DNA of 64,000 nucleotides. It comes from a virus. The notes below the pieces were generated by a model. That model had not been told where the DNA came from. It saw only the letters and a list, made by a program, of their open reading frames with translations, and searched no databases. The stretch lies in IMG/VR virus record IMGVR_UViG_3300046794_000505, positions 21,777 to 85,776 of that record. One strand, 5' to 3'. Shown piece after piece: positions 3,739-44,260 of this stretch; positions within the stretch are counted from its first letter, which is position 1, and every line of letters begins with the position of its first letter. The position numbers and the translations under genes are program-made.

Positions 3739-5796
3739 CTACACCTCTCCGTCGTCGTACTCCCGCACCGCGAACATGTCGCACCCTGGATCCTTCTTCT
3801 GAACGATGAAGTTTCTCAGGGTGCAGCGGCCTGTGTCTGGATCGAACGCCGAACACCGTCCACACACACCCTGCGGTAGCGGATCGACCATCGCCACCAC
3901 ATGCGCTGGCAAGCCTGGCATTGCTTCCACGATTGCCTCCTGACCTGGGGTCTGGGTTTTCTCTTGGGGTAGGATGAACGTTGAGGTTCCGTGCGCACGC
4001 GACCAAGCCACATCGCACAGCTGGTTGGCATAGCTGAAGTGGGGGTCAATGCCGACCTTCTGCACCTTGCGCTTGTACTGGTTGGTCTCTTCGTCCTTTT
4101 CGGCGACCAGCGCCGTCTTGGTGAAGTGATGGAACGCGCGACGCGCAGGTGACGCCGTGATGATGCCTTCCTTGTCGCGGATGTCGTCCTGCACGATCTG
4201 GTCAGGATCCGGCCATAGGCAGGTTGGCGGATCCGAGGTGAATCGCGCCAGGGAGATCTGCATGGTGCGGAACTGATCGGCCTTCACCGTCCAGCGGCTG
4301 CGCATTTCGTCATCGGTGCGACGATCAGAGGCGTCCACCTTGCCGCGGTCGTGCCATTCGATCAACTCGCCATTTGTCAGAGCTCCGAAGCCGTCACAGA
4401 TGAACACGCGGCCAGGGTGACGCTTGGCGAAGGCGTGGGCCTCGTTGAAGTTCGGGTTGCCCTCCACCACGCAGCAGGCGACCCCATAATGGTTCATCAG
4501 CTCCGAGCAGCGACCGAACGGATCCTCACTGTAGATTTCCTCGATATGGACCACCGCCTGGCTGCCATCCTCCAGGCGCTTCTTGATGATCATGGCGTTG
4601 AACTGACCCATCTGGTCAATCCCGGCGAATGTGCCCTTCCCTCCCTTCTCCCACTTCAGCCCACGCTCAACCCCGTAGCGAACGCAGCGGTTCATATGCT
4701 CGAGCGTCACCGGGATCTGATCCGGGTTCAGGTACGGCTTCCCCAGCACCCGGTTGTAGAAGTTCTTCTTGTCGGTCGAGATCTGCCACTTGTACATGAT
4801 CTCGCCCGGAGTGATCGTCGGCGAGAGCATCTGCGGGAAGTGGGCCGACAGGATCAGGGCCTTGCTCGGATCGCCGGCGATCCACTCACCGTCTTGCGGA
4901 TCATCGATCCAGTGACCGGATTCGCAGACGTAACGGTACAGGCCGGGGATGCCTGTCAGGGAATCCACTGCATAAGGATCCCACTGGATGCACGCCGGGA
5001 AATAGTCGTCGAGCGGTTTCATGGCATCGCAGGTCGGACATCGCGTATGGAACGCGTGCCGGCTGCCCAGCAGGTACATCGCGTGGATGTCCGATTCTGG
5101 CCAGTTGGCTGTCGAGCCCATCAGCACATAACGGTACTGTGAGGCCGACACCCGCTCCATGGTTTTCTCGATCTGGGCCGAGGTCATCTCCTGGACCTCG
5201 TCGAAGTTCAAAAAGTCCATCGGGACGGATTCTGTTGTGGCGCGGCCGGACGTCCAGGCGAACAGGTACAGCGCATCGCCGATCTGACGGACCGAGACGT
5301 TGCCCTCGCCGCTCTTGCGCCCGTTGCCGTCCATGGCCTCCATGGTCATGCGTTTGTGCGCCTCGGGCACAGTGCGCACGATCGGCATGAAACGGACGCT
5401 GGATTTGATCTGCGCCAAGCGCTGGTCGGGCAGGAACATCCCAATGGTGCACGGCTGGAATTTCAGACCGAGGTAGATCGAGGCGAGGATTTCCATGATG
5501 GTGAACCCCACCTGGGCACACTTCATCAGTACCAGCTGGCGCCGGTAGCACTCTTTCATGGTCGAGGGGATTTGATCATATAGCCAGGCCATCGCTGGGC
5601 GGTCATGGAGCGTGAACGGTTTCCCGTCGACCTTCAGGCCTTTGCGCCCAAGATCCTCGCACCACTCACGGAACGTGACATCGTCCTCGACAGCCTTGTC
5701 CTCAAGCTTGAACCCAGTCTTCTGCTCGAGCCGGGCCAGCATGTCGGTGAGCCCACCGCGATAATCGATTTTCCCCGTTCCGCTGCCGTATGCCAC
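3739..5796 (-). CDS. terminase large subunit (gpA family)
   Basis: Walker A-like KCAQVGFT, Walker B FLNFDEV, CPTC/C..GH zinc segment, nuclease AGIDQM. Confidence 0.85.
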   Translation of the reverse strand: MAYGSGTGKIDYRGGLTDMLARLEQKTGFKLEDKAVEDDVTFREWCEDLGRKGLKVDGKPFTLHDRPAMAWLYDQIPSTMKECYRRQLVLMKCAQVGFTIMEILASIYLGLKFQPCTIGMFLPDQRLAQIKSSVRFMPIVRTVPEAHKRMTMEAMDGNGRKSGEGNVSVRQIGDALYLFAWTSGRATTESVPMDFLNFDEVQEMTSAQIEKTMERVSASQYRYVLMGSTANWPESDIHAMYLLGSRHAFHTRCPTCDAMKPLDDYFPACIQWDPYAVDSLTGIPGLYRYVCESGHWIDDPQDGEWIAGDPSKALILSAHFPQMLSPTITPGEIMYKWQISTDKKNFYNRVLGKPYLNPDQIPVTLEHMNRCVRYGVERGLKWEKGGKGTFAGIDQMGQFNAMIIKKRLEDGSQAVVHIEEIYSEDPFGRCSELMNHYGVACCVVEGNPNFNEAHAFAKRHPGRVFICDGFGALTNGELIEWHDRGKVDASDRRTDDEMRSRWTVKADQFRTMQISLARFTSDPPTCLWPDPDQIVQDDIRDKEGIITASPARRAFHHFTKTALVAEKDEETNQYKRKVQKVGIDPHFSYANQLCDVAWSRAHGTSTFILPQEKTQTPGQEAIVEAMPGLPAHVVAMVDPLPQGVCGRCSAFDPDTGRCTLRNFIVQKKDPGCDMFAVREYDDGEV

Positions 5797-13436: not shown

Positions 13437-13970
13437 TCACTCATCAAGAGTGTTATGTCCAGTAGCTGCATCGACAAAAGCCTGGATATCTGACCGATAA
13501 GCGCCGTACCTATGCACGGTGGCGATAAATTCCTCAACGTCGTGCCCACGGAGTGCCCAGCGCGCTTTGCCCGTTTCCTCGTCCTGCATCGGTTCGCCGT
13601 CGGCGTTGAACTTGAGCTGCATGTGACAGGTTTCGTGATAAATGAGAATTTCTTTCATTAACGGCGTGTAGCTCTCCCACAGCTCGTTGTCGAGCGTCAC
13701 CAGAAAGTCCGGCACCCTCCCGAACATCTCCTCGAGCATCCACACGAAGAAGTTCTTCAGCATCCCTTGGACCTTCGGCAGGTGACATTGCCCCTCGACC
13801 ATCCGTCCACCCATCACCAGCGAATCGGTGCGCATCAGGAACTCGACGTCGACCTCCCAGGTCTTCAGGAATTCAAGCTCCTCACACGAGTTGATCAACC
13901 GCTTGAAAATCGCGGCTGGCTGGTCATCGCCAGGCTCTGGACGCTTGTACATGCCAATGGACTCGCTCAA
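13437..13970 (-). CDS. putative phage metallopeptidase
   Basis: 'PDFLVTLD..W......EILIYHETCH...LRGHDVEEF..TVHRYG' HExxH motif. Confidence 0.8.
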   Translation of the reverse strand: MSESIGMYKRPEPGDDQPAAIFKRLINSCEELEFLKTWEVDVEFLMRTDSLVMGGRMVEGQCHLPKVQGMLKNFFVWMLEEMFGRVPDFLVTLDNELWESYTPLMKEILIYHETCHMQLKFNADGEPMQDEETGKARWALRGHDVEEFIATVHRYGAYRSDIQAFVDAATGHNTLDE

Positions 13971-16562: not shown

Positions 16563-16596
16563 AAAATAAAAAAACCGCCTGGGCGAGAGGCGGTTA
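16563..16596 (-). terminator. rho-independent terminator
   Basis: AACCGCCT-CTCGCCC-AGGCGGTT plus T run. Confidence 0.75.
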
Positions 16597-16635: not shown

Positions 16636-16651
16636 ACCGTAGCGTCACGAG
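16636..16651 (-). promoter_or_regulatory. putative late promoter element CTCGTGAC-GC-TACGGT
   Basis: Motif copy overlapping the stop of 16645-16974. Confidence 0.45.
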
Positions 16652-16974
16652 GTGGCCACGTCCGGCCCGGGGGTCTGGGGGAGCATCTGAACCCAGTGCT
16701 TTTTATTCGTTTCGTCCCGCTCCCATCGCCAACCTGCGCCGTGCAGCATTTTCATTTCTGCTTTGATCAGCTCGTGGAACTCTTCGTGGTACCCCTCACG
16801 CATCGCGCGCAGCCGGAACACTTTCTCATTCTTTAGGATGTCCCGCGCGGCCCGCCACACCTTGTCGGCGACCAGACGCCAGGCGGCGCGCTTGCACTCA
16901 GGCGGGAAGTCCTTCACTGGCAGACGCCCCGCCCAGCACTCATCGGCGACCTTTACCGGATCAGCGACGATCAT
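16645..16974 (-). CDS. hypothetical protein
   Basis: AGGAGG SD. Confidence 0.55.
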   Translation of the reverse strand: MIVADPVKVADECWAGRLPVKDFPPECKRAAWRLVADKVWRAARDILKNEKVFRLRAMREGYHEEFHELIKAEMKMLHGAGWRWERDETNKKHWVQMLPQTPGPDVATS

Positions 16975-17359
16975 TGATCACCTCCTTGAGCAGTCGCTGC
17001 AGCGTTCTCAGCCTGGCGCGAGCGACTTCATCACCAACCTCCTTGATCGCGGCACCCATCAGCGCTTCTGCCTTGGCCAATTGCTTAACGGCCTTTTCAT
17101 AGGCAGTTTTCGGCCGATAACCAGTCAGCGGATTGCGCTCAGCCAGGAGGTTCCAGTAATTGTCTTTGCAGTTGTCGCTGCCGCTATTCGAGCAAAACAC
17201 CGTGTTGTAGCGATTCTTGATGAGTTTGCTCTGGCAGACAGGGCAGCACACTTCAGCGCCGATCGAAGCCGCCTTGACGACCTCATAGCATGCCCTGGCA
17301 TCTGCCGCGCTGCGCGGCTCCGTCTGCATGACATTCGAATCCATGATTGCCTCCATCAC
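16961..17359 (-). CDS. zinc-finger-like hypothetical protein
   Basis: CPVC...FCS.....CKD.YWN. Confidence 0.6.
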   Translation of the reverse strand: MMEAIMDSNVMQTEPRSAADARACYEVVKAASIGAEVCCPVCQSKLIKNRYNTVFCSNSGSDNCKDNYWNLLAERNPLTGYRPKTAYEKAVKQLAKAEALMGAAIKEVGDEVARARLRTLQRLLKEVINDRR

Positions 17360-18267
17360 TGATTGACGACTGTTGGATTGCGCTCTTCGGTCAGGAATCG
17401 CGTGACCAGCGGCCCGACCGTTTTGGCCTGGGTGACCAGAAATAGATGCCCGTCATTGATGACATGCAGGTCAGCGTTAGGCATGCGCTGGGCCATCCTG
17501 CGCATGTTGACCAGCGGAATCAGCGGGTCATCGTTGCCGGCCAGCACCAGGGTGGGCTGCCTGATCTTGTGCACCCAGTGAATGCTGGTCCACATATACA
17601 CCGCCATCATCTGGTAGTAATAGCCGCGGCCGCCGGAGGATTGCATTTTCTCGGCGTAGGCCGCAGCCAAGGCCTTATCGCTCCGGAACACCCCACCATA
17701 GATGTACGGGGCGATCTTTGCGCCGTATGCCGGGCTCGTATAGCGCAGCGGGCTGGACATCAACCACAGGACCTTGAGTGACGGCGGCACCATAAACACA
17801 CCACAGGATGTCGCCGCGAGGATGAGCTTTTTGCAGCGCAGTGGATGATCAAAGGCGAACTGCTGGGCAAGGAAACCGCCCCACGACACGCCGATCACAT
17901 TGACCTGGCCGTAATCCAGATAGTCCAGCATCTGGGCCACCAGCCGTGCCAGTCCCGAAAACCCATATGGCAGCACTGGCGTTGAGGAGCCCCCCACGCC
18001 AGGTACGTCGAAGGCGATCACCTCCTGTTCACGGTCCAGGGCTTCCATGAACGGGATGACCAATTCCAGACTCGCACCGATACCGTTGAACACCAGCAGC
18101 GGGGTCAGGTGCGAACTGCCAGGGCGAACCAGCGTGCGGATCGACTGCCCATCGATTTCGATGGTACGGATGACCAAGGCTTTAGTCGGAGCACCCCGTC
18201 GATTCGTCTTGCGGCGCTCAGGGACACCAAGTTTTCCTTCGTCGAACGACTCGTTTAGATTGCTCAT
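17356..18267 (-). CDS. phaZ: medium-chain-length poly(3-hydroxyalkanoate) depolymerase
   Basis: Near-colinear with Pseudomonas PhaZ: LTPLLVFNGIGA, AFDVPGVGGSSTP, lipase box GVSWGG, LAGNDDPLIPLVNM, DGHLFL. Confidence 0.92.
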   Translation of the reverse strand: MSNLNESFDEGKLGVPERRKTNRRGAPTKALVIRTIEIDGQSIRTLVRPGSSHLTPLLVFNGIGASLELVIPFMEALDREQEVIAFDVPGVGGSSTPVLPYGFSGLARLVAQMLDYLDYGQVNVIGVSWGGFLAQQFAFDHPLRCKKLILAATSCGVFMVPPSLKVLWLMSSPLRYTSPAYGAKIAPYIYGGVFRSDKALAAAYAEKMQSSGGRGYYYQMMAVYMWTSIHWVHKIRQPTLVLAGNDDPLIPLVNMRRMAQRMPNADLHVINDGHLFLVTQAKTVGPLVTRFLTEERNPTVVNQ

Positions 18268-18986
18268 GATAATCCTTTAGATCTAGACACGACCGGAGTG
18301 GTCAAGGCTTGATGCAGTGTCATGCCACGATGGATCCTGGCGCTAATGGTACCGATGGGAATTCCTGCCGCTGCCGCATGATCCGACAGATTGCGCACTG
18401 CGCCACGGTGTTCGGCGTGTTTACCCTGCTTGCGAAACACTGGGTTCAACCCCTGGGCCACCAGATAGGAGCGCATGGTGGTGACCGAGCAATAACCGAG
18501 GAACGAAGCGGCCTGGGTCTGCGAGTACTTCGACGCGTGCAGATCCAACCATGCGGCGATCGTTATCCCACTGCCCTGCTTGAAGCGCGCGGCCACTGGC
18601 AAATAGGTCGTTGCCGACCATGGGTTATCACCGGGTCGCTTCGCCAAGTAGCGATAAAGTGCCCGGGCGTCGTACTCGAGTCGCTTCGCGGTCGCGTTGA
18701 TAGACAACCCTTCTGCCTGCAGGTCGGCCAGCACCTCATCAAACAGCTTGCCGTATTGCATTTCGATGGCCAGTCGCCGCGGCGCGATCAGGATTGACGG
18801 GTTATCGCCGCCGGCGCGTTTCGCATAGCCGAGTGCTTCTGATAGTTTCCAGCCGCGAGCTTTGCGCGATCGCACAGTCGAAGGGGATAAGCCTTGGCGT
18901 GCGGCGTGCTCTGGAATTGTCCCAACAAACCCGCCCAGGTCGTAGGAGAAATAATCCATGTCGCGTTTTTTCTTCACTGATTCCAT
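18264..18986 (-). CDS. multi-HTH DNA-binding protein
   Basis: 'HAARQGLSPSTVRSR..RGW.LSEAL' repeated as 'HAAAAGIPIGTISARIHRGM.LHQAL', plus two internal HTH-like units. Confidence 0.6.
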   Translation of the reverse strand: MESVKKKRDMDYFSYDLGGFVGTIPEHAARQGLSPSTVRSRKARGWKLSEALGYAKRAGGDNPSILIAPRRLAIEMQYGKLFDEVLADLQAEGLSINATAKRLEYDARALYRYLAKRPGDNPWSATTYLPVAARFKQGSGITIAAWLDLHASKYSQTQAASFLGYCSVTTMRSYLVAQGLNPVFRKQGKHAEHRGAVRNLSDHAAAAGIPIGTISARIHRGMTLHQALTTPVVSRSKGLS

Positions 18987-19028
18987 GGTCCATTCTCAAA
19001 AATCGCCCGGTGTCACCCGGGCTTGATG

Positions 19029-22703: not shown

Positions 22704-23017
22704 TTTAAAATTTCCTTGTCTTCAATCACGCCCGCCGGGAGGTGGGCGCGGTGGGTTCGGCTCTCGATAACATCGTGAACCAGTTCGGATGCGGTGGCCA
22801 TTGTGGCAGCCGCAGAGGATAAATCGGCAAGAGTTTTCTGCATGCGGTTGTGGTCGCACAGCAGCTCGATGATGGCGATGGCGATCGGGCCGATACCGTC
22901 ACGGATGAGCGCCGCGTGCAGCTCACGCTCAAAATTTGAATAAACGTCGGCCGGTTTCATCAGTCGATTCGTCGCCACAAGCAAGCCAGCAAATTTGTTC
23001 TTATGATCGATCCTCAT
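22700..23017 (-). CDS. hypothetical protein
   Basis: Coupled ORF. Confidence 0.55.
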   Translation of the reverse strand: MRIDHKNKFAGLLVATNRLMKPADVYSNFERELHAALIRDGIGPIAIAIIELLCDHNRMQKTLADLSSAAATMATASELVHDVIESRTHRAHLPAGVIEDKEILN

Positions 23018-23946
23018 GCCGCCTCATCCTCTTCATCCACCGGCGGAACATACCCCAGCAGGTCGCAGATATGCTTGACGGTGGCCACGAATTCCAGCAA
23101 CTGGATCGCCGCCTCATGACGCCAGATGTGGGCGATATCCTCCAGTTCGCTAGTGTCATAATCCGGATCACTGGCGAAGCTGATGCTGCTGAACTTGAAT
23201 TCGTCATTCAGCTTGAAATCCATCTCGCCATGCTCGAACCGAATGGCATGAACTTCCAGTTTCGATTCCAGCGCCTCGAGCAATCCGGCGCGACCCTCGG
23301 CCAGGTCGTCGAGTTGGTAACTGACCTTCTGGCTTTTTTGGCCTTTTTTCTTAAGTTCGACCAAGCCGCCCAGGTGCAGATCACCAAACGCGCGCTCCTG
23401 ATCCTGCAGATGGTTCTTCAGGCGTGTGGTGAGACCGTTTTTGATGTCGCTGATGTGGATGGTGGTGGTTTTCACTGACCCAACGACGTGCACCAGCACA
23501 CCAACCAACATGCGGGCCTGCATCTTGCTGGCAGTCAGTACGATCAGCAGTTTCTCGTCGATATGGTAGAAACAGGTGATGTAGGACGATTCCACCAGCG
23601 CCTTCTTGCACATCAGCGCCAGAGTCTGTTCGGCGATCGCCTGGCGCTCGACCTTTTTCAGCCTGACACCGGACGACTTCTCAGCCGCCTTGATCAGCTT
23701 GTTGGCCTCGGCCATCACCAGATTCATCGGCAACACCTTGCTGTCTTCACGCAGAGTGAACGAGTAGCCACCTTGGAATTCCGTAACCAGCTCGCCGGTG
23801 ATGGCATTCGGCACGAAGCCAGACCGCGACAGCATATTCTCGGGGAGTTCTTCGAACGGATGCTCCAGCAGATGCTTTGCGATATCGGTCGCACCGGGTA
23901 ACTCGGCGCTGTAGACGATCGCATTTTTCAGATGGTTGAATTCCAT
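23014..23946 (-). CDS. rdgC: recombination-associated protein RdgC
   Basis: 'KNAIVY...L.EHPF......RSGFVP...LREDSKVLP..V..E...LKK.ER..IAEQ..A.M..KA'; 310 aa. Confidence 0.8.
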   Translation of the reverse strand: MEFNHLKNAIVYSAELPGATDIAKHLLEHPFEELPENMLSRSGFVPNAITGELVTEFQGGYSFTLREDSKVLPMNLVMAEANKLIKAAEKSSGVRLKKVERQAIAEQTLALMCKKALVESSYITCFYHIDEKLLIVLTASKMQARMLVGVLVHVVGSVKTTTIHISDIKNGLTTRLKNHLQDQERAFGDLHLGGLVELKKKGQKSQKVSYQLDDLAEGRAGLLEALESKLEVHAIRFEHGEMDFKLNDEFKFSSISFASDPDYDTSELEDIAHIWRHEAAIQLLEFVATVKHICDLLGYVPPVDEEDEAA

Positions 23947-25097: not shown

Positions 25098-27890
25098 TCA
25101 CCCCATCAGGGCAGTAATTGGAACGATCACTGCTCTTGAGACAGCACCAACTCCGAAATATTCGGTCTTGGCTGTTGGGGAAGCGCCCGGAATGCGTTTG
25201 ATGATCTTGCCCCAGTTGTTAGGCCATGGGCTGTCACGAAGAATCTTGGCGATCGCGTCATGCTGGTTCGAAATGATCACGCCTTTGCGATCATCCGACA
25301 GCTTGACGCCATAACGCAGCAACGATTCTTTGGCCGTCTGCGCGTAGACCTCGGGATCCGCCTCCATGCCAGATGCCAGCCCGACGAGCTCGCCCAAGGT
25401 CCGATCCAAGTTGCTGCCCTGTGTGCCTAGCACTTTCACCTGCTGACTCATCAACCTGGCCATCAACGAGAATTCATCGCGTTGTTCATTCAGGCTGTTT
25501 TCTTCTTCCCACTCCTGGCCTTCAATCCATTTCTGGGCTTCTTCGATGGTGACCACATTGTTTGAATGCAGCGCATAGGCACCGGCGAGCAACGCCCCAA
25601 TCTGGTCGCCCAAGCGTTGCTGACCCAGAACCCGAGCACCAGCCTTAGCGAAAGTCTTCGCGTTCTCACGGATGATGCCGATCATGCGAATGGAGCGGGC
25701 GTGCAGGCTCTGCACGAATTTGTCAGTCAGCGTCCCGAAGGTCAGCGCCTCCAGTTTGGCGAATTGCTCGGCCCTGGATTCTTGGCTCTGCGATTGATCG
25801 ACACGCAACTGCAGCACTGATACCCGGGTTTTGTCAGAGTATTGATGCACTGCGACACCAATAGATGAGAACGCGAACATGGAACGAATACGGAACGATT
25901 GGTGTTTACCACCAGCGCTGCCTTTCAGGATTTCACCACCAGACTCACTGGACGCCTGGCGCATCAACTGCATGATGTTCTGGATTCGCTGCTGGGCACC
26001 GGCATCCTCACCTTCCGCTTCATCGAAGATCACTGGACGCGCATCGTGGCCGAGGGCTTGCCGGATACCTGCCTCCGTAGTCGAGGACAATGCATTCAGC
26101 GCGAAGCCATCCAAACACCGTGACAGAATGTTGGTGATCGCCCACGACTTACCGGTACCACCGCCACCCGTGAGCCAGATATGCGGACGCCAATCGAGAG
26201 AGCCGCAGATCGCCGCCAGTACAATGAAGCCGGCGAACAGGTAAGCATCGATCGGCTTCTCCCACTGCATCATCTTGCAGATTTCGATCACTTTGTAGGC
26301 TTCGCGGGCGCTCAAGGGGTGGTCGATATCCACCAGCATGCCGCGCGAATGTTCGTAAATATGCCATCCATCCACGTCCCGCAGCTGACAGACAGTGCCA
26401 TCGACGATCAGGTGCGAACCCAGGTGCAGCACCGAGCGCCCACTGTCCCACCAAGCGCCGCGCCCGCGGATGCGATCCGGGTCATAGATACCCTCGGCCT
26501 CGCACATCCGCATCAGGGCATTGACGGCCATGTCCCAAGAAACTCGACTCGTTGCACCAGGATAACGGGCCTCCCAGTGCGAGAGGGGCGCCATGGCCAA
26601 CAGCGCCTGTTTCGAGTGACCGGATGCGGTCAGCTCGTGCACCTGTCGTGAACCCTTGGCCAGATAGAAGAACGACCCGTGGTCATAGCCGAGCGGACGA
26701 TAGGGGTCATCGTCATCGTCGAAAACTTCAAGGTATTCGGCGCTGACCGGCTCTTTGAATTCTTCTTCCTCTTCGAGGCTGACACCATCACCAGCCTCAG
26801 ATTCATACTGATCCGGCACCTCCTCATCGTCGGCGTCTGCATGCGGCAGCGGCTCAAGTGCTTTGCCGGCATGCGCCTTGATATAAGCCAGGGTGTGCAT
26901 GGCATCCCAGCCGTCGATATTGATCGCGTCGGCGATGTCCCAGCCCTCGGGCGAGCCATCGGGCGGCTCAACGCACATGATCCCGGCAACACCGACTTCT
27001 TGCAGTATCTGGACCAGGCCGTTATTCAGCTCGCCGTCACTGTTGAACCAACCGTAAGTCGTCTGATAGCCGGGGATGTCAGCATCGCGCCAGAGAATGA
27101 TCCGGCGCCCGGCCAACGAACTGAAATCAACATGACGAATCGCCTTCCCGCCTCCCGGCCATGAGACGATGGGAATCTGATTGATGACTTCGGTGGCGAC
27201 ATCGACGCACTTCTCGCCCTCGACCAGGAGCACGGGAACCTTGCTGTCGAACTGCACCAGATTGTCGAGGCCATAGAGCGGACGTGGTTTCGGGAACGAG
27301 AGCCAGCGCCAAGCTTCACGGTTGTCCTCAGTATTGCGCGCCCACACCAACGGCATTGGCTCTTTCTTCCCGGTAACTGGGTGCAAAAACCGCACGACAT
27401 AGCCGATCAATTGGCTGCCCATGTCGCGATAGGGGTAAATCTTCTGGATCGGAAACTCTATCCATTCATTTTCGATCATGCGTCGATAAATGAATGTCGG
27501 CTCGGGGACGCCGGCCGGTGCCGGAATGATCGGCTCCCACTCAGGCTGTGCATTCATCTTCACCGAGTCGCGTTGCATCGGCGTCAGATTATTCACTTGG
27601 CGCAGATCACCACCAGATAGCACCTTACAGGCATCGACAAAACTCATCTGCTCGAAGTCGATAACAAACCGAATTGCATCGCCACTCGCACCACAACCGA
27701 AGCAGTAATACATCTGCTTGTCCGGAACCACCTTGAAACTTGGCGACTTTTCTTTGTGGAATGGGCAACAGGCTTCCCACTCCTTGCCGGACTTTTTCAG
27801 GTCGACGCCATAACCGGCGATCACCTCTTTGATGTCGACCGCGGCCAGGATTTTTTCCCGGTCAATGCGGGGTAGCTCTTTTCTTGCCAT
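25098..27890 (-). CDS. DNA primase-helicase (CHC2 zinc finger + TOPRIM + P-loop NTPase)
   Basis: CPFH...CFGC; VEGEK/WPGG/DAD TOPRIM motifs; GGGGTGKS Walker A; IFDEAE Walker B. Confidence 0.88.
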   Translation of the reverse strand: MARKELPRIDREKILAAVDIKEVIAGYGVDLKKSGKEWEACCPFHKEKSPSFKVVPDKQMYYCFGCGASGDAIRFVIDFEQMSFVDACKVLSGGDLRQVNNLTPMQRDSVKMNAQPEWEPIIPAPAGVPEPTFIYRRMIENEWIEFPIQKIYPYRDMGSQLIGYVVRFLHPVTGKKEPMPLVWARNTEDNREAWRWLSFPKPRPLYGLDNLVQFDSKVPVLLVEGEKCVDVATEVINQIPIVSWPGGGKAIRHVDFSSLAGRRIILWRDADIPGYQTTYGWFNSDGELNNGLVQILQEVGVAGIMCVEPPDGSPEGWDIADAINIDGWDAMHTLAYIKAHAGKALEPLPHADADDEEVPDQYESEAGDGVSLEEEEEFKEPVSAEYLEVFDDDDDPYRPLGYDHGSFFYLAKGSRQVHELTASGHSKQALLAMAPLSHWEARYPGATSRVSWDMAVNALMRMCEAEGIYDPDRIRGRGAWWDSGRSVLHLGSHLIVDGTVCQLRDVDGWHIYEHSRGMLVDIDHPLSAREAYKVIEICKMMQWEKPIDAYLFAGFIVLAAICGSLDWRPHIWLTGGGGTGKSWAITNILSRCLDGFALNALSSTTEAGIRQALGHDARPVIFDEAEGEDAGAQQRIQNIMQLMRQASSESGGEILKGSAGGKHQSFRIRSMFAFSSIGVAVHQYSDKTRVSVLQLRVDQSQSQESRAEQFAKLEALTFGTLTDKFVQSLHARSIRMIGIIRENAKTFAKAGARVLGQQRLGDQIGALLAGAYALHSNNVVTIEEAQKWIEGQEWEEENSLNEQRDEFSLMARLMSQQVKVLGTQGSNLDRTLGELVGLASGMEADPEVYAQTAKESLLRYGVKLSDDRKGVIISNQHDAIAKILRDSPWPNNWGKIIKRIPGASPTAKTEYFGVGAVSRAVIVPITALMG

Positions 27891-27894
27891 GACG

Positions 27895-28335
27895 CTACTT
27901 CCCTTGTTGTTGGTCGTCGTAAGGCCAGGAGTCAATAACAGCCTGAGCCTGCTCGGGACTTTTGGCGAAGCCTGCGATCCCGCCGTAGAAACGGATTCGC
28001 TCCACGAAGGTTTTCTGATGCTTCTTCGCCACGCCCTTGAGGTCTTTGACCTCGATCACGGTGTAAACAGCGATCTTCCTGCCCATCAACCGCTCGGCCC
28101 ACTCCGGGGTCATGGTGATGGTGGTCCATCCGTTGAGGTCGCTGGCGCCGGTCAGCAGCTCACCATCCGACTTGGTCAACCCAGCCCTGAGCGGCCTGAA
28201 GGTGGTGCCCACCAGCATGTTTTTGACACGCTTGAAATTTCCAACCCAGCCCATGCCCGTGGTCAGTTTGAACAGCCGGGTTGCGCCGTTGGAGCAGGCA
28301 AGCATGATTTCCTTGACGACATTCGTTTCACTCAT
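27895..28335 (-). CDS. VRR-NUC family nuclease
   Basis: 'G.SDL.G...IEVKD.KG....Q..F...I...GGIAGFA.S'. Confidence 0.8.
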   Translation of the reverse strand: MSETNVVKEIMLACSNGATRLFKLTTGMGWVGNFKRVKNMLVGTTFRPLRAGLTKSDGELLTGASDLNGWTTITMTPEWAERLMGRKIAVYTVIEVKDLKGVAKKHQKTFVERIRFYGGIAGFAKSPEQAQAVIDSWPYDDQQQGK

Positions 28336-29798
28336 GCCTTGGCAGCCTGTTTTGCTTGACGTCCATGGAGGATGTGCCGCGCCCATGCATGCGGATTTTT
28401 GTAACGCTTCTGTTTGGCCAGTTCGACCAGCTCCTCAAGCGTTTTCGCCTGACTCTGTTCGTAGGCACGGTTACGTTTCATCTGCGCCGCCTGCTCGGCC
28501 TCCACGCGCTGCAACTCACCATCGACCTCGTCAACTACTCGGCCTTTGAATTCGACCGCAGTACCACAGTTCGGACAACTCGGCGCTGGCGCGAAGGTCA
28601 CCCAGCAGGTATCACACTGGAGCACCCGGATATTGATTTCGTTTTTCTTCCCGGTGCGCGTCACTTCACCACTGAGGGACCATTCGCGATCCTCTTCGGG
28701 GAGGCCATGCTTGGCACAGTTGCCAACATGGTCCAGCACGATGGCCCGGTCCTGGCCTTCGAACGGACGCAGGATGCGCCCAACTTGCTGCATGTGCAGG
28801 CCAGTACTCTGCGTTGGCCGCAGCAGGATCCCGCAACCCACTACCGGGATGTCGGTACCTTCGGAAACGATATCACAGCTGCTCAACCCGTCCAGACGCC
28901 CAGTGGTCAGGCCATGAATCAGCGAGCGGCGCTGTGCGCTGTGCATGGTGCCGTCGATTGACTGGAACTTCCAGCCGGCAGAGCGGAAGTCGGCCGCCAC
29001 GTGTTCGGCATGCGAGACGGACACGCAGAAGGCCAATGCCTGAAGGCCTGGGCAGAGCTTGCCATAATGCTTCACGGCGGAACCGGTAATAACGGGTTTG
29101 TCGACCGCTTCCACCAGTTCTTTCTGGATGAAGTCCTTGCCGCCACCGCCATGCCGAACCCCGGTCAGGTCAAGAGCAGTGGGCGGCGCATAGACAGTCG
29201 ATGGCAGCAAGAACCCCAGTCGAATCAGTTCGCTCATTGACGGCCCGACCACCATGTCGTTGAACAGGCCTCCATGGTCTACACCCAGACCTTTACCATC
29301 GGAGCGGATCGGCGTCGCCGTCACCCCGAGAATTCGCGCTTGATCATAGAACCCGAGGATCTTGCCCCACGTATTGTCCTTCTGACAGTGGTGCGCCTCA
29401 TCCGGGATGATCAGATCGGGCGACCAGGTCGTTGACAGCCGATTGACCAAAGTCCCAACGCTGGCGATCGCGATTTTCGCCGTTTCACTCAGGTACAGGC
29501 GACCCAGCTCGCTCAGCTGCTGATGCTGGATCTCGCGGATATGGTCGGTCTGAGCGATCAGGTAATGCTTCAGACCCATCTTCGCCAGCGACATCGAGGC
29601 CTGCATCAGCAGCTCTTTACGGTGCACCAGAATCAGGACTTTATTCTGTTTTTTCGTCGCGCCATCGGCTACATAGCTGAACGTAAAAGTCTTACCCCCG
29701 CCGGTTGGCAGCACATACAGAACAGCCCTGTTCTTAGCCTGGAATGAACGCCGTATCGCATCCACCCCGGCCGCTTGATACGGCCTGAGTTGAATCAT
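28332..29798 (-). CDS. SF2 DEAD/DEAH-box helicase
   Basis: LRPYQ, PTGGGKT, DEAHH, TATP, EGTDIP, QQVGRILR, C-terminal zinc ribbon. Confidence 0.92.
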   Translation of the reverse strand: MIQLRPYQAAGVDAIRRSFQAKNRAVLYVLPTGGGKTFTFSYVADGATKKQNKVLILVHRKELLMQASMSLAKMGLKHYLIAQTDHIREIQHQQLSELGRLYLSETAKIAIASVGTLVNRLSTTWSPDLIIPDEAHHCQKDNTWGKILGFYDQARILGVTATPIRSDGKGLGVDHGGLFNDMVVGPSMSELIRLGFLLPSTVYAPPTALDLTGVRHGGGGKDFIQKELVEAVDKPVITGSAVKHYGKLCPGLQALAFCVSVSHAEHVAADFRSAGWKFQSIDGTMHSAQRRSLIHGLTTGRLDGLSSCDIVSEGTDIPVVGCGILLRPTQSTGLHMQQVGRILRPFEGQDRAIVLDHVGNCAKHGLPEEDREWSLSGEVTRTGKKNEINIRVLQCDTCWVTFAPAPSCPNCGTAVEFKGRVVDEVDGELQRVEAEQAAQMKRNRAYEQSQAKTLEELVELAKQKRYKNPHAWARHILHGRQAKQAAKA

Positions 29799-36453: not shown

Positions 36454-36651
36454 CTAAGTGGCTGGCATCGCCGACTTATCAGAACTGGAGAATTTTTCAG
36501 TCGCGGGATCATAGGTGAATCCTGGAGAAACATTATCCCCGTCCTTGACTGGAATAAGCGAAATACCATCAGGCTGCGGCCAACCACTCTCACCATCCCA
36601 AATGGCAACGTTCTTAACTACTCCCTTATAAACCATTGCATAAATTCCCAT
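36454..36651 (-). CDS. small tail-fibre-associated protein
   Basis: 'YAMV..GVV.NV..WDG...W.P.G...G.TY' typical gene after a fibre. Confidence 0.65.
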   Translation of the reverse strand: MGIYAMVYKGVVKNVAIWDGESGWPQPDGISLIPVKDGDNVSPGFTYDPATEKFSSSDKSAMPAT

Positions 36652-38177
36652 TATGCATACTCCTCAATAATTACTGCGCCAGCATTACCAGTAACACCTA
36701 CCTGAGCTGCTACACTTGAGCCAACCGCTACACCGCCTGGCCCTGCGCCTGGTCCTGTCCCTGTCAAGTATCCACCGCCTGATACGCTGCCACCTGCACC
36801 ACCACCGGTTCCAGTTATGGGTGATCCACCGCCAGTTCCAGAAACACCAGCGCCGGTCGTGATAAAAATGGCTGGAGTACTTGGTGCTCCCTTGATGTTG
36901 ATTGTGGAGCCGCCACTGGAATCTCCACCAACACTAGGCTGCAGAATATAAGCTGCGGCGGATGCTACCCCCGCAAGACCGCCTACGCCACCATTGGCAG
37001 TCATTCCTATAAAAGATGAATTTCCCCCTGTTCCTCCATTCCCCGCTGAGACGCCAGTGCCGCCCGCACCTACAGTCACTGTTGCGGGGAGCGTGCCGAT
37101 CGCTGCAACGGTCATAGTTCCTTCGCTATATCCGCCACCCCCACCGCCACCAGCGACAGAATTCTGGGTTGATGATGTAGCAGGGGTACCACCACTTGCA
37201 CCACTACCACCTATAACTCGGACACGTACCGTATTAGTGCTTGCCAATGGAGTAAAACTACCGCTGCTTGTGAAAACCGTGATTTTTAAAAATCTTCCAG
37301 TGGCCTGCCCTAATTGCATGGCATGGTTACTTTTTGTTGCGGCAGCGACCTGCTCTGCCGAACCGGTACAGAACAGCAGAATGTATGAACCTCCGCCGAC
37401 AGAAGTATTCCATTGCACCCACGCGTCACCGTTGGCAACAAGCTCTCCACCTTGAAGAGCAGAATGCGCACCGCCAACCAGAGCCACGACACCCAAGCCA
37501 TCGTTGAAGGTCGATGCGCCGGTATTGGATGTCTTGACCTTGAAGCGCAGCGGCTGCTGTTCACTGCGAGCGGTAATAGCTGGAGTGAAAGCGCAGACGT
37601 AAGTATTAGCCGTGCCGGTATCCACCGCAGCCGTATTATTGACCACGGCATCCGCCACGAAAGCTGTACTGGCCACCTGCGTCGTCTTTGTGCCCGCTGC
37701 GGCTGTTGGTGCAGTTGGAGTTCCGGTCAGTCCAGGACTTGCCAGTGGCGCTCGAGAAGTATCAATGGGATGAACATGATCTTCGCGGCTAAGGGCTGTT
37801 GCTGAACCAGCAGCGGCCGTACCATTCATCAATGGGGTGGCTGTAGATATCGCGCCAGCCGCTGCCGTACCTAACTGAACCGTCCAGTTTGCAGGGTTGA
37901 ATGCACCTGGAGAAATCGCAGTATTTGCCTGCCAAATATTCAGCTGATAAATGACCTGCTGACCACCTGTGTATGAGTTCCCGGTACTGAACGCCGGGAT
38001 GCCAGTCCCTTTAAGCAGGTTGAGTGCATCTACCTGAGATTTTAACCAGTTGGTCCGATTTGCCAGGCCTTTGGCTTGCAGGTTGGAAATACCATTGACG
38101 CCACCAATGACGGCATCGTCCAGTTCAATCTGGTAAATACCGGCATCATAACTGGTGGATTCTGGAAGGTTAGACAT
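36651..38177 (-). CDS. tail fibre protein
   Basis: 'IYQIE..D.V.GG.NG.SN.QA..LANRT.WLK' anchor; 'APLASP.LTGTPTAPT' fibre repeat; Gly-rich C-terminus. Confidence 0.88.
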   Translation of the reverse strand: MSNLPESTSYDAGIYQIELDDAVIGGVNGISNLQAKGLANRTNWLKSQVDALNLLKGTGIPAFSTGNSYTGGQQVIYQLNIWQANTAISPGAFNPANWTVQLGTAAAGAISTATPLMNGTAAAGSATALSREDHVHPIDTSRAPLASPGLTGTPTAPTAAAGTKTTQVASTAFVADAVVNNTAAVDTGTANTYVCAFTPAITARSEQQPLRFKVKTSNTGASTFNDGLGVVALVGGAHSALQGGELVANGDAWVQWNTSVGGGSYILLFCTGSAEQVAAATKSNHAMQLGQATGRFLKITVFTSSGSFTPLASTNTVRVRVIGGSGASGGTPATSSTQNSVAGGGGGGGYSEGTMTVAAIGTLPATVTVGAGGTGVSAGNGGTGGNSSFIGMTANGGVGGLAGVASAAAYILQPSVGGDSSGGSTINIKGAPSTPAIFITTGAGVSGTGGGSPITGTGGGAGGSVSGGGYLTGTGPGAGPGGVAVGSSVAAQVGVTGNAGAVIIEEYA

Positions 38178-38191
38178 TCACCAGCCCCTTT

Positions 38192-38656
38192 CTAAAAGTT
38201 GATCTGCCAAGTGCCGGCAAGAGAAAGATCAGAGTCTTTTACGATGGCCCCCGAGCGAGTTTTTCTGGCGAATAGAACACTACCGGTGGTGAACAGTCCG
38301 AACTCCATGATCGATAGACCATTGGCTTCGGTAGTCCCCAGGGAAAAAGCGTATTGAACTGAATTCGTAGTCGGATAGGTGACAGCGCCGAGGGCATTCG
38401 TATAGGCGCCGGTAAGCGATGTATTGCCAGCTGCTGGCGCGGTGCCGGAGGTGCCGAAGCCCATAATCGTCAGGGATCGGTTGGTAACATCCCCGCCGAT
38501 CAACCTGGCCAATTGTTGCTTTGAAAGATCGACTACCAGGTTTTTATCCTGATAGACCTCAATTAAAAGGCCCTTGTGATAAATATTGAGCGTGAAGATG
38601 CCCTGAGGCCGATAGGCAATATCGCCATTACCGATGGAATCAATGAGTTGAATCAT
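38192..38656 (-). CDS. baseplate / fibre-attachment protein
   Basis: 'NLVV...GFGT.GT......L...EANG..I.EFGLF...LFARK....I.K'. Confidence 0.65.
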   Translation of the reverse strand: MIQLIDSIGNGDIAYRPQGIFTLNIYHKGLLIEVYQDKNLVVDLSKQQLARLIGGDVTNRSLTIMGFGTSGTAPAAGNTSLTGAYTNALGAVTYPTTNSVQYAFSLGTTEANGLSIMEFGLFTTGSVLFARKTRSGAIVKDSDLSLAGTWQINF

Positions 38657-42860: not shown

Positions 42861-43133
42861 ATGACCATCGACAAATGCCGAGAAGCACTTCAAGCCGCAT
42901 ATGAAGCTGGTGTTCCGTCAGCAGTTTGGCAAGCGTCGATGTGCGCAGAGGATAACGCGGGCGGCACTCTGATTGACCAAGGTCGCAAGCAAGACCGCTT
43001 CATTGAAGGCACAAGCATTTTCAGCGATGAGATGGTGACATTCTGGTATTACAGCATCCAAGGCATTATGAGCGAGTCAGATTGCGATTCTGTCGTTCGA
43101 GAGTTCTTCGCAAAATTTGGGATCATTGCCTAA
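42861..43133 (+). CDS. island hypothetical protein
   Basis: GGAG SD; follows promoter. Confidence 0.55.
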   Translation: MTIDKCREALQAAYEAGVPSAVWQASMCAEDNAGGTLIDQGRKQDRFIEGTSIFSDEMVTFWYYSIQGIMSESDCDSVVREFFAKFGIIA

Positions 43134-43324
43134 CCAACCCCGCCCACCTCAAACCCCTTAACTGGGGCTGAGTAGGTGCAAGAGGTAGGATATTTTTCCT
43201 ATGAACCGCCAGAGGATACGACCATGCGCTCGCCGACCAAAACCGGCACCTGACGAATGCTCAGCCCGCCATGTGCGGGCTTTGCCAGTACCACAGGAAG
43301 CAACTCGCCCAAGGAGTCACCGTC

Positions 43325-43546
43325 ATGAAATTCAGTACTTTGCGCCACATTCTGAACCCACACATCACCAAGATTCTGCTGCTGCATACCGCTGGCGGGA
43401 TCTACGCAGGAATGACCGGGCGTAGCTATGTACAGCGCCTAATTCGCCGGAAAGTGGTGGCGGCCTACAAAACTTGGGCCGCACCAAAGCAGCCAAGTCA
43501 GGCTGAATCCGACACTCTGATCGAACAAGTCATCCGTTCAATTTGA
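43325..43546 (+). CDS. hypothetical protein
   Basis: AAGGAG SD before MKFST. Confidence 0.5.
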   Translation: MKFSTLRHILNPHITKILLLHTAGGIYAGMTGRSYVQRLIRRKVVAAYKTWAAPKQPSQAESDTLIEQVIRSI

Positions 43547-43567
43547 ATTGAATGATAGGAGATCGTC

Positions 43568-43696
43568 ATGCGCGCCATTCTACGGAAAATTCAAAGCAAG
43601 CCTCGGCCTGATCTGCGCGATTGTGCGAAGGGCCGGATGCATGATGCCGTTGCTCAAAAAATCGTGATCACAATGCCGGGGGGATTTATCGCCTGA
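43568..43696 (+). CDS. small basic hypothetical protein (42 aa)
   Basis: AGGAG SD; MRAILRKIQSKPRPDLRDCAKGRM. Confidence 0.45.
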   Translation: MRAILRKIQSKPRPDLRDCAKGRMHDAVAQKIVITMPGGFIA

Positions 43697-43700
43697 CATC

Positions 43701-43778
43701 GGGCCTCCAGCCTATATGGTACAGGCATCCGCCTCATAAGCGGGAGATAGACCGGTTCGAATCCGGCGAGGCCCACCA
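43701..43778 (+). tRNA. tRNA with CAT anticodon (probably Ile2, otherwise Met)
   Basis: GGGCCTC/GAGGCCC acceptor, GCCT/AGGC D stem, CTCATAA loop, GGTTCGAATCC, encoded CCA. Confidence 0.85.
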
Positions 43779-43863
43779 AATAAAGCAAGACCATTAGGCA
43801 GCACCGGGGTGGGCGCGCTGTAACAGGCGCCCTGTTTCAATCCACAATACTGAGAACCATCAA

Positions 43864-44022
43864 ATGCTTGACGAGTTGATCCCACTGTCTGTGTTGGCGC
43901 TAATTATCATCATCATGATCCTTGGCACTGCGTGGTTGGTCTGGATGTTCAGCGCAGAGGGCCAAGACGCCAGGCGATTTAAACGAGAAAACAAGGGTCG
44001 CCGGAAAAGCGATCAATACTGA
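43864..44022 (+). CDS. small single-TM protein (52 aa)
   Basis: MLDELIPLSVLALIIIIMILGTAWLVWMF plus basic tail. Confidence 0.5.
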   Translation: MLDELIPLSVLALIIIIMILGTAWLVWMFSAEGQDARRFKRENKGRRKSDQY

Positions 44023-44080
44023 GTAATCTGATTTTCAAAAAATCAGGCTGGTCAGAACCAGAGAATCACCGAGCGCCGCC

Positions 44081-44260
44081 ATGAACACTACCAAGATAGT
44101 CCGCATATTAACCACCCCGATGTACCGTGACGGCCTGATCTTGCAAACCTCCATTGAGTTCGCAGCGTTCTACAAGCTGTTCTTACGCTTAGGTGATCAC
44201 GGTCTCTATTGTGAAATCCGTTACGAGATGACCCCAACCTATCGAGGTATAAAGCCATGA
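44081..44260 (+). CDS. hypothetical protein (59 aa)
   Basis: ATGA overlap with 44257. Confidence 0.4.
   Translation: MNTTKIVRILTTPMYRDGLILQTSIEFAAFYKLFLRLGDHGLYCEIRYEMTPTYRGIKP

What the first reader, a model, noticed from the sequence alone, without database searches (positions are those of the whole stretch)
17356..18267. Phage-borne PHA depolymerase (phaZ) built into an early operon
Seen: a full-length PhaZ-like ORF with intact Ser (GVSWG), Asp (NDDPL) and His (DGHL) and an N-terminal extension. It overlaps both phage neighbours by 4 nt, and no phaC1/phaC2 flank it. Established: in Pseudomonas, phaZ lies between phaC1 and phaC2 and mobilises intracellular mcl-PHA granules. Inference: an auxiliary metabolic gene that releases the host's stored carbon and energy during infection. 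I know of no characterised phage example, but this needs a search.
Basis: partly seen in the sequence, partly recalled or inferred. Interest (0 to 1): 0.8.

Follow-up and report, generated by a model that had tools for sequence, protein, structure and literature searches.

The report
Phage-carried PHA storage-polymer depolymerase gene
A complete 86-kb Pseudomonas-type phage carries an intact, selectively maintained copy of the enzyme its hosts use to break down their polyester (PHA) carbon store; many unrelated phages carry close relatives, which suggests but does not prove that phages tap this store during infection.

Summary
Window 17356-18267 (minus strand) encodes a 303-aa protein that scores 438 bits on NCBIfam TIGR02240 (poly(3-hydroxyalkanoate) depolymerase, cutoff 250.6). 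Its Ser128/Asp247/His274 triad is intact. The gene lies inside a CheckV-complete 85.8-kb myovirus with direct terminal repeats and no PHA synthase.

It is not a one-off. 47 other IMG/VR contigs carry 53-74% identical PhaZ genes in at least 15 different local gene contexts. Sixteen of the 48 records searched, this phage included, are complete or nearly so (48-307 kb). None of them carries phaC. All keep the triad, and dN/dS is 0.03-0.10.

A collinear sister phage lacks the gene at exactly this gene junction and carries its own copy elsewhere.

All sampled Pseudomonas chromosomal PhaZ are 63-70% identical to it, so there is no recent donor.

Function as a carbon- and energy-releasing auxiliary gene is inferred, not shown. 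The inference is well grounded: raising PhaZ dosage alone gives P. putida about ten times more ATP in stationary phase (PMC8764540).

It is not entirely new. The Ralstonia jumbo phages RP12/RP31 were annotated with a PHA depolymerase in 2017 (PMC5468394), uncharacterised. This scan has also met phage phaZ on other DNA several times, with concordant conclusions.

Verdict: a real new member of a known kind, of moderate interest.

The parts
17356..18267 (-). phaZ: 303-aa poly(3-hydroxyalkanoate) depolymerase homologue (P0001). Ser128 codon 17886-17884, Asp247 codon 17529-17527, His274 codon 17448-17446.
   Evidence: ORF; TIGR02240, 438.2 bits against a cutoff of 250.6; Abhydrolase_1; triad invariant; confident alpha/beta-hydrolase model.
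18178..18267 (-). N-terminal extension (residues 1-30): basic, with no hydrophobic stretch, predicted disordered. A 'DRR..(S/T)(N/D)R..PK'-like motif is shared with a few close relatives.
   Evidence: the HMM match starts at residue 31; pLDDT below 50 for residues 1-27; extension present in P0002, P0016 and L018; most viral copies start at the core.
18264..18986 (-). Upstream 240-aa multi-HTH protein. Its stop overlaps the phaZ start (ATGA).
   Evidence: sequence; HTH_28/HTH_23; phrog_1065; 86% identical homologue in sister phage G010.
16961..17359 (-). Downstream 132-aa Zn-ribbon protein of unknown function. The probable start is the ATG at 17344, preceded by GGAGG.
   Evidence: sequence; phrog_8162; weak Zn_ribbon; 51% identical homologue in G010, which there abuts the 240-aa gene directly.
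16645..16974 (-). 109-aa protein, the last gene of the four-gene block.
   Evidence: (83% identical homologue in G010).
19005..19022 (-). GC-rich hairpin plus T-run (terminator-like) about 18 nt upstream of the 240-aa gene start.
16573..16595 (-). Strong intrinsic-terminator-like hairpin followed by T7, closing the four-gene block.
42867..44256 (.). Variable island between divergent units. It holds tRNA-Met (43701-43778, +) here. The syntenic island in sister phage G010 holds that phage's own phaZ.
   Evidence: tRNA; synteny; G010 phaZ at 37642-38487, minus strand.

Best explanation
The ORF encodes a catalytically competent, cytoplasmic medium-chain-length PHA depolymerase (PhaZ) carried as cargo by a probably virulent Pseudomonas-type myovirus.

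The gene sits as a single-gene cassette exactly at the junction of two conserved phage genes. It is translationally coupled to the gene upstream (ATGA) and co-oriented with the replication module.

Inferred mechanism: once expressed in an infected cell that holds PHA granules, the enzyme adds depolymerase activity beyond the host's own regulated PhaZ and hydrolyses the polyester to (R)-3-hydroxyalkanoic acids. The host's FadD and beta-oxidation (the phage encodes neither) convert these to acetyl-CoA, NAD(P)H and ATP. This fuels phage DNA replication and virion synthesis in carbon-starved or non-growing hosts.

Shown here: family membership, intact triad, phage context, purifying selection, recurrence across phages, and presence/absence between sister phages.

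Inferred: activity on mcl-PHA, timing of expression, and the benefit to the phage.
For: Family membership and fold:
- TIGR02240 equivalog match of 438 bits against a cutoff of 250.6.
- 63-70% identity to chromosomal Pseudomonas PhaZ, including a P. putida PHA depolymerase record (P0100, 66%).
- Ser/Asp/His and 70 other columns invariant over 91 homologues.
- AlphaFold model with mean pLDDT 86 and pTM 0.85, an alpha/beta-hydrolase with a lid; the best PDB folds are esterases/hydrolases, including a Bacillus PHB depolymerase.

Phage context:
- The genome is an 85,776-bp DTR virus record, CheckV 100% complete, with terminase, capsid, sheath, baseplate, primase and helicase.
- No PhaC_N, AMP-binding/FadD, phasin or integrase was found in it.

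Recurrence in phages:
- 47 further IMG/VR loci carry PhaZ in at least 15 contexts, none with phaC. Of the 48 records searched (this phage included), 16 are at least 90% complete.
- Their flanks hit 184 PHROG families.
- Eight representatives plus cultured phage RP12 all pass the TIGR02240 cutoff.

Selection and residence:
- dN/dS is 0.03-0.10 among close viral pairs. For the window gene, dN is about 0.19-0.21 against saturated dS.
- GC and GC3 of phaZ lie within the range of the phage's own genes.
- Sister phage G010 is collinear at 70-88% nt identity. It lacks phaZ at this exact junction and has its own copy elsewhere.

Mechanistic grounding: in P. putida, raising PhaZ dosage alone raised beta-oxidation and TCA flux and gave about 10-fold higher ATP in stationary phase (PMC8764540).
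Against: - There is no biochemical or expression evidence for any phage PhaZ.
- The phage is uncultured and its host is inferred. The inference rests on the nearest cultured relatives being Pseudomonas phages at about 50-58% aa identity, short nucleotide matches to P. syringae phages, and the PhaZ affinity.
- No promoter was identified. A terminator-like hairpin sits just upstream of the block, so the level and timing of expression are unknown.
- High PhaZ dosage in P. putida also causes secretion of the monomers (PMC8764540), so the carbon need not all be used.
- Cultured relatives of this phage group (Touem01, Jeremy, Dolphis) gave no PhaZ hit, so the gene is dispensable for the lineage.
- Deep branching of the tree is soft: the AU test does not reject placing the window protein next to the canonical clade (p 0.50).
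Confidence: 0.6

Rival explanations
1. The enzyme does degrade PHA, but the benefit is not fuel. It might stop carbon being diverted into new PHA when growth stops on infection, clear bulky granules from the cytoplasm, or release (R)-3-hydroxyalkanoic acids that alter host or neighbouring-cell physiology.
For: PHA synthesis and degradation run at the same time as a cycle. High PhaZ dosage causes all the PHA made to be hydrolysed and the monomers secreted (PMC8764540). The phage carries no FadD to reactivate the monomers.
Against: The same study shows that high PhaZ dosage raises ATP about 10-fold and increases oxidative metabolism in stationary phase, which fits the fuel reading directly. Nothing in the sequence separates these sub-hypotheses.
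Confidence: 0.17
2. The protein is an esterase that has shifted to a substrate other than PHA (for example envelope lipids, acyl-homoserine lactones or another ester) and serves lysis, entry or interference with signalling.
For: It belongs to the broad alpha/beta-hydrolase superfamily. PHROGs only calls it 'esterase/lipase'. Its nearest solved folds are generic esterases, a phospholipase A and an AHL-degrading esterase. It has an extra N-terminal tail and lineage-specific substitutions near the nucleophile elbow (WGGFLAQQ against WGGALAQQ).
Against: The score is equivalog-level, far above the cutoff. Identity to a P. putida PHA depolymerase record over the whole length is 66% (P0100). There is no signal peptide or hydrophobic segment (read directly from the sequence). 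It is not in the lysis or tail modules. The next-best NCBIfam families score 110 bits or less, far below their cutoffs.
Confidence: 0.1
3. The gene is a functionless passenger picked up from a host or another phage and not yet lost.
For: It is an indel between sister phages. Cultured relatives lack it. HNH endonucleases are common near phaZ in other phages.
Against: The ORF and triad are intact in 47/47 viral copies. dN/dS is 0.03-0.10. Composition is ameliorated. No chromosomal donor is closer than 70% among 301 Pseudomonas species genomes. The gene is kept in at least 15 phage contexts, including 16 complete or near-complete genomes.
Confidence: 0.05
4. It is an assembly chimera or host contamination in the viral contig.
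For: The record is a metagenome-assembled genome.
Against: The 127-bp direct terminal repeats are exact and CheckV gives 100% completeness. Both flanking genes have homologues in collinear sister phage G010. The ATGA coupling to the phage gene upstream is seamless. There is no phaC or other host gene nearby. The same situation recurs in 47 other viral contigs.
Confidence: 0.01

Closest known systems
Intracellular mcl-PHA depolymerase PhaZ of Pseudomonas putida KT2440/KT2442 and other pseudomonads (NCBIfam TIGR02240)
   Same: Same family at equivalog level (438 bits). About 66% identical over the whole core. Same GxSxG Ser, Asp and His. Same size of alpha/beta-hydrolase core with lid. No secretion signal.
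   Different: It is encoded by a phage, not between phaC1 and phaC2. It carries a 30-aa basic, disordered N-terminal extension. It has non-canonical states at positions such as S66, F132, P162 and M208. It is flatly 63-70% identical to every sampled Pseudomonas PhaZ, so it lies outside the canonical crown group. Its activity is untested.
Poly(3-hydroxyalkanoate) depolymerase annotated in Ralstonia jumbo phages RP12 (ORF269) and RP31 (ORF266) (PMC5468394)
   Same: A phage-encoded TIGR02240-family protein (291 bits). It was listed as a PHA depolymerase in the 2017 genome paper and is uncharacterised.
   Different: It is only 45% identical. It sits in phiKZ-like 280-kb jumbo phages of Ralstonia, a host I know (own knowledge) as a short-chain PHB producer. 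RefSeq now labels it merely 'esterase/lipase'.
Uncultured phage PhaZ genes in IMG/VR (L003-L049), including sister phage G010
   Same: 53-74% identical, same triad, no phaC, under purifying selection. G010 is the same phage lineage (terminase 68% aa identical, genome collinear).
   Different: They are inserted at other genome positions and in otherwise unrelated phages (48-kb to 307-kb genomes). Most lack the N-terminal extension.
Classical phage auxiliary metabolic genes (own knowledge: for example cyanophage psbA, talC; phoH)
   Same: A host-type metabolic gene kept under selection in virulent phage genomes, plausibly to sustain energy and carbon supply during infection.
   Different: It targets a storage polymer rather than photosynthesis, the pentose-phosphate pathway or nutrient uptake. 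No expression or fitness data exist.

Membership tests
PhaZ, intracellular mcl-PHA depolymerase (TIGR02240) | Whole-protein HMM score above the curated equivalog cutoff | tested here: met
   438.2 bits against a cutoff of 250.6, covering residues 31-301 and profile positions 2-272 of 276.
PhaZ, intracellular mcl-PHA depolymerase (TIGR02240) | Ser (GxSxG) - Asp - His catalytic triad | tested here: met
   GVS128WG, D247 and H274 are invariant in 16-, 91- and 48-sequence alignments. The 3-D geometry of the triad in the model was not measured.
PhaZ, intracellular mcl-PHA depolymerase (TIGR02240) | Alpha/beta-hydrolase fold with a lid/cap domain | tested here: met
   AlphaFold2 mean pLDDT 85.9, pTM 0.85. 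The strand/helix order is typical, with a helical insertion at residues 164-224. Foldseek TM-score 0.7-0.77 to alpha/beta-hydrolases.
PhaZ, intracellular mcl-PHA depolymerase (TIGR02240) | Cytoplasmic, with no signal peptide | tested here: inconclusive
   The N-terminus is hydrophilic, basic and predicted disordered, with no hydrophobic h-region. No dedicated signal-peptide predictor was available.
PhaZ, intracellular mcl-PHA depolymerase (TIGR02240) | Location in the pha cluster between phaC1 and phaC2 | tested here: not met
   No PhaC_N anywhere in the phage genome. The flanks are phage genes. This is a contextual feature, not a biochemical one, and its absence is expected for a phage copy.
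PhaZ, intracellular mcl-PHA depolymerase (TIGR02240) | Hydrolysis of mcl-PHA and association with granules | not testable with these tools
   Needs an enzyme assay and localisation.
Phage auxiliary metabolic gene (AMG) | Encoded inside a bona fide viral genome, with viral genes on both sides | tested here: met
   DTR genome, CheckV 100% complete. Phage modules lie on both sides. The flanks are conserved in sister phage G010.
Phage auxiliary metabolic gene (AMG) | Maintained by purifying selection in viruses | tested here: met
   NG86 dN/dS is 0.03-0.10 among close viral pairs. The window gene against its relatives gives dN about 0.2 with saturated dS.
Phage auxiliary metabolic gene (AMG) | Expressed during infection and altering host metabolism to the phage's benefit | not testable with these tools
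   No transcriptome or culture is available. The support is only indirect, from PhaZ-dosage experiments in P. putida (PMC8764540).

The most novel reading that the evidence does not exclude
PhaZ genes of this non-canonical type form an old gene pool maintained by phages. The pool circulates among many unrelated phages of PHA-accumulating pseudomonads (48-kb siphovirus-like genomes to 300-kb jumbo phages), is re-inserted at different genome sites, and now and then seeds orphan chromosomal paralogues. On this reading, liquidating the host's PHA granules is a general and so far unstudied phage strategy for replicating in starved, non-growing cells. The basic, disordered N-terminal tail seen in this phage and a few relatives would be a phage-specific adaptation, for example for granule or phasin targeting or for escape from host control.
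Probability: 0.4. Interest if true: 0.7.

Novelty: new member of a known kind. Interest (0 to 1): 0.5.

Why it matters
PHA granules can make up a large share of the dry mass of pseudomonads under carbon excess and nutrient limitation. They are the cell's main carbon and energy reserve in famine, the state in which most environmental bacteria meet phages and in which phage replication is usually poor.

A phage-delivered depolymerase would be a simple way to turn that reserve into ATP and precursors on demand. It would add storage-polymer mobilisation to the list of auxiliary metabolic functions.

The hypothesis is directly testable. The host enzyme, deletion strains and PhaZ-dosage strains exist for P. 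putida, and a cultured phage with a homologue (Ralstonia RP12) is available.

It also bears on PHA bioproduction (phage contamination could strip product) and on carbon turnover in PHA-rich microbial systems (own knowledge, not tested here).

The practical annotation point is that such genes are now labelled only 'esterase/lipase' or 'hypothetical' in phage records.

Tried and rejected
The genomic context of the nearest relative, P0002 (77-78% identical, 2.6-kb ENA contig), stays unknown.
- **Viral scan with the single protein** found nothing. Only the alignment-based scan worked.
- **The metagenome scan** used a pattern that canonical PhaZ shares. It gave no relative closer than 73%.
- **Independent acquisition in the two sister phages.** I first read the tree this way, but the AU test does not reject their PhaZs being one clade (p 0.65). 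One acquisition followed by relocation is equally possible.
- **A clean 'viral clade sister to the chromosomal clade'.** The free tree gives SH-aLRT 98/99. However, placing the window protein next to the canonical clade is not rejected (p 0.50), and four cellular sequences lie inside the viral-dominated clade. The claim is therefore softened to 'outside the canonical crown group, nearest to phage copies'.
- **A mobility partner.** No gene family travels consistently with phaZ, although HNH endonucleases are frequent nearby.
- **Further PHA-pathway genes in the phage** (PhaC, FadD-type AMP-binding, phasin): none found.
- **Promoter scan:** no sigma-70-like site near the block.
- **Tat-signal reading of the RR motif:** rejected, because no hydrophobic region follows it (sequence).
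- **Leader-capture origin of the N-extension:** only a weak 6-10-residue resemblance, so it is left as a note.

Full report
**1. Observation**

The stated coordinates hold an ORF on the minus strand, 17356-18267, of 303 aa (P0001).
- It has the nucleophile elbow GVS128WG, the NDD247PL motif and DGH274L.
- Pfam sees only generic alpha/beta-hydrolase domains.
- NCBIfam gives an equivalog-level match to TIGR02240, poly(3-hydroxyalkanoate) depolymerase: 438.2 bits against a cutoff of 250.6, covering residues 31-301. The next family scores 110 bits, far below its own cutoff.
- PHROGs says only 'esterase/lipase'.

The start is well supported. An AAGGA lies 5 nt upstream of the ATG, and that ATG overlaps the TGA of the upstream gene as ATGA.

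An ATG at 17344 preceded by GGAGG, 11 nt after the phaZ stop, is the more plausible start. Either way the gene is packed tightly.

**2. Context**

The window is bases 21777-85776 of an 85,776-bp IMG/VR virus record with direct terminal repeats (127 bp, exact) and a CheckV completeness of 100%. Its genes include:

| Gene | Window coordinates |
|---|---|
| Large terminase | 3739-5796 |
| Primase | 25098-27935 |
| Helicase | 28332-29798 |
| Recombination exonuclease | 23014-23946 |
| Tail fibre | 36651-38177 |
| Baseplate wedge subunit | 39829-40956 |
| Tail sheath | 51178-52896 |
| Major capsid protein | 57159-58604 |

The nearest cultured relatives by capsid and terminase are 86-95-kb myoviruses of Gram-negative bacteria, led by Pseudomonas phages Touem01, Jeremy and Dolphis at about 50-58% aa identity. 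Short nucleotide matches go to P. syringae phages. No tyrosine integrase was found, which fits a virulent lifestyle.

phaZ lies in a four-gene minus-strand block, in this order:
- a 240-aa multi-HTH protein,
- phaZ,
- a 132-aa Zn-ribbon protein,
- a 109-aa protein.

A terminator-like hairpin (19022-19005) bounds the block upstream and a strong terminator (16595-16573) closes it. The block is co-oriented with the replication genes. No promoter was identified, so 'early' is an inference.

The phage has no PhaC, no FadD-type AMP-binding enzyme and no phasin.

**3. Not an artefact**

Sister phage G010 (90,791 bp, also with a 127-bp DTR) is collinear with this genome at 70-88% nt identity over about 54 kb.
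- At our site, its 240-aa gene (86% aa identical) abuts its Zn-ribbon gene (51%) directly, with an ATGA overlap.
- phaZ is therefore absent there to the base. In our phage it occupies that junction and inherits the ATGA coupling.
- G010 has its own 281-aa phaZ (74% aa identical to ours) in a variable island between divergent units. In our phage that island holds tRNA-Met.

phaZ GC (0.59) and GC3 (0.74) lie within the range of the phage's own genes.

**4. How common it is**

*Cultured and GenBank phages.* Among 50,697 phage records, only Ralstonia jumbo phages RP12/RP31 have a true homologue (45% identical). It passes the TIGR02240 cutoff at 291 bits.

*Uncultured viral contigs.* An alignment-based scan of IMG/VR found 47 further loci at 53-74% identity.
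- None of the 48 records contains PhaC_N.
- 16 of the 48, this phage included, are at least 90% complete, and 13 have DTRs.
- Sizes run from 48 kb to 307 kb.
- By shared flanking genes they fall into at least 15 contexts.
- 139 flanking ORFs hit 184 PHROG families, including major tail, virion structural, DNA polymerase and many HNH endonuclease families.
- Other phaZ phages of similar size (G011, G045, G046) share no terminase with ours.
- Representatives all pass the TIGR02240 cutoff (314-434 bits).

*Cellular genomes.* In 185,579 species genomes the subgroup motif is rare near this identity level.
- The best cases are a P. serbica replicon (66%) and orphan copies in P. fluorescens PS833 and P. 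lini (58-59%). The rest are 53% or less.
- Those three genomes also have the canonical copy.
- The two orphan copies sit in ordinary metabolic contexts. They are much AT-richer than their loci, so they look acquired.
- Of 301 Pseudomonas species genomes, 280 have a PhaZ match, almost always one copy, at 63-70% identity and never closer. This tally includes two unpublished genomes, G149 and G200, each with one ordinary match. No specific claim rests on them, and without them the count is 278 of 299.

**5. Selection and function**

The triad and other signature residues are intact in 47/47 viral copies.

NG86 dN/dS among closely related viral pairs is 0.03-0.10. The window gene against its nearest DNA-available relatives gives dN 0.19-0.21 with dS above 1.

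The AlphaFold model is confident for residues 31-298 and shows an alpha/beta-hydrolase with a helical lid. Residues 1-27 are predicted disordered.

No close homologue has a solved structure. The nearest folds are esterases and hydrolases, including a Bacillus PHB depolymerase.

**6. Phylogeny**

The maximum-likelihood tree (quick search, LG+G4) puts canonical chromosomal PhaZ of Pseudomonas, Halopseudomonas and Zestomonas in one clade (SH-aLRT 98). The window protein, next to P0002, falls in a sister clade (SH-aLRT 99) of 38 viral, 6 unknown-context and 4 cellular rows. A further viral clade branches more deeply.

The deep structure is soft, however.
- AU tests do not reject the window protein lying next to the canonical clade (p 0.50).
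- They also do not reject the two sister phages' PhaZs forming one clade (p 0.65).

What can be said:
- The protein is equidistant (64-67%) from all canonical PhaZs.
- It carries the non-canonical state at the strictly diagnostic positions.
- Its nearest relatives are phage copies.

So it is not a recent capture from a sampled host. Whether the G000/G010 lineage acquired phaZ once and moved it, or acquired it twice, stays open.

**7. Mechanism**

Established knowledge (PMC8764540):
- In P. putida, PhaZ is a granule-associated protein that releases (R)-3-hydroxyalkanoic acids.
- FadD reactivates these acids for beta-oxidation.
- Raising PhaZ dosage alone gave higher beta-oxidation and TCA flux and about 10-fold higher ATP, sustained for 72 h into stationary phase. 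It also caused secretion of monomers.

A phage that expresses PhaZ in a PHA-loaded, non-growing host would therefore be expected to raise energy charge and precursor supply. This is the best-supported reading (confidence about 0.6).

Rival readings:
- Other benefits of PHA hydrolysis.
- A shifted substrate.
- A neutral passenger.
- A chimera.

The last two are disfavoured by the data above.

**8. The N-terminal extension**

Most viral copies start at the conserved core (MKAFVFRT...). P0001, P0002, P0016 and the jumbo-phage copy L018 share a short basic motif upstream of it. The in-frame translation of the untranslated leader of some chromosomal phaZ genes resembles this motif weakly. Its role is unknown.

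**9. Prior knowledge**

- The 2017 RP12/RP31 genome paper lists a poly(3-hydroxyalkanoate) depolymerase among its annotations, without further study (PMC5468394).
- A 2026 preprint proposes a PHB depolymerase AMG in a Gloeobacter prophage (PMC13317609).
- Full-text searches combining PHA depolymerase or phaZ with phage and AMG terms found nothing characterised.
- Earlier follow-ups in this scan reached the same reading on other phage genomes, apparently including G010 and a 284-kb jumbo phage. I read these after forming my own view. They agree with it and did not change it.

**10. Verdict**

It is a new member of a known kind, of moderate interest.

Noticed in passing
window 42867-44256 (tRNA-Met at 43701-43778, +); G010 37642-38487: A variable island between divergent transcription units holds tRNA-Met in this phage and a phaZ cassette in the collinear sister phage. 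It looks like a hot spot for cargo genes.
   Followed up: partly
L051:7911-8801 and L052:7989-8801 (P. fluorescens PS833, P. lini): These are orphan second phaZ copies in ordinary chromosomal contexts. They group with the viral-dominated clade and are much AT-richer than their surroundings (GC 0.51 and 0.48 against 0.60 and 0.56). They were probably acquired from the phage-type pool.
   Followed up: partly
window 18178-18267 (-); L138, L139 upstream of chromosomal phaZ: The basic N-terminal extension shares a 'DRR..(S/T)(N/D)R..PK' motif with P0002, P0016 and L018. It weakly resembles the in-frame translation of the untranslated leader of some chromosomal phaZ genes, which could mean leader capture or a start shift.
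   Followed up: partly
L141:2974-3789 (Ralstonia phage RP12 ORF269): RefSeq labels this gene 'esterase/lipase', although it passes the TIGR02240 cutoff (291 bits) and the original paper called it a poly(3-hydroxyalkanoate) depolymerase. The annotation has lost information.
   Followed up: yes
flanks of phaZ in L004-L048 (14 representative loci): HNH endonuclease PHROG families are the commonest annotated families near phaZ in other phages. No single family is consistently adjacent, so a link to homing-endonuclease mobility is only a hint.
   Followed up: partly
window 19005-19022 (-): A GC-rich hairpin with a T-run lies only about 18 nt upstream of the start of the 240-aa HTH gene that heads the phaZ block. 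It could attenuate read-through into the block, or act as a processing or stability element.
   Followed up: no
window 13437-13970 (-): A 177-aa ORF matches a PHROG 'transposase' family (phrog_513, E 1e-31) in a phage with no detectable integrase.
   Followed up: no
window 60478-61686 (-): A 402-aa PAPS-reductase-like protein (phrog_2302, 'auxiliary metabolic gene' category). An earlier first-reader note reads it as an IbrA/DndC-like DNA-modification gene.
   Followed up: no
L050:6278-13009 (P. serbica replicon): The 66%-identical phaZ copy on a replicon labelled as a plasmid (1.06 Mb) sits among NYN-domain, R2K ATP-grasp and HipA genes, a context that looks like a mobile element or defence island.
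   Followed up: partly
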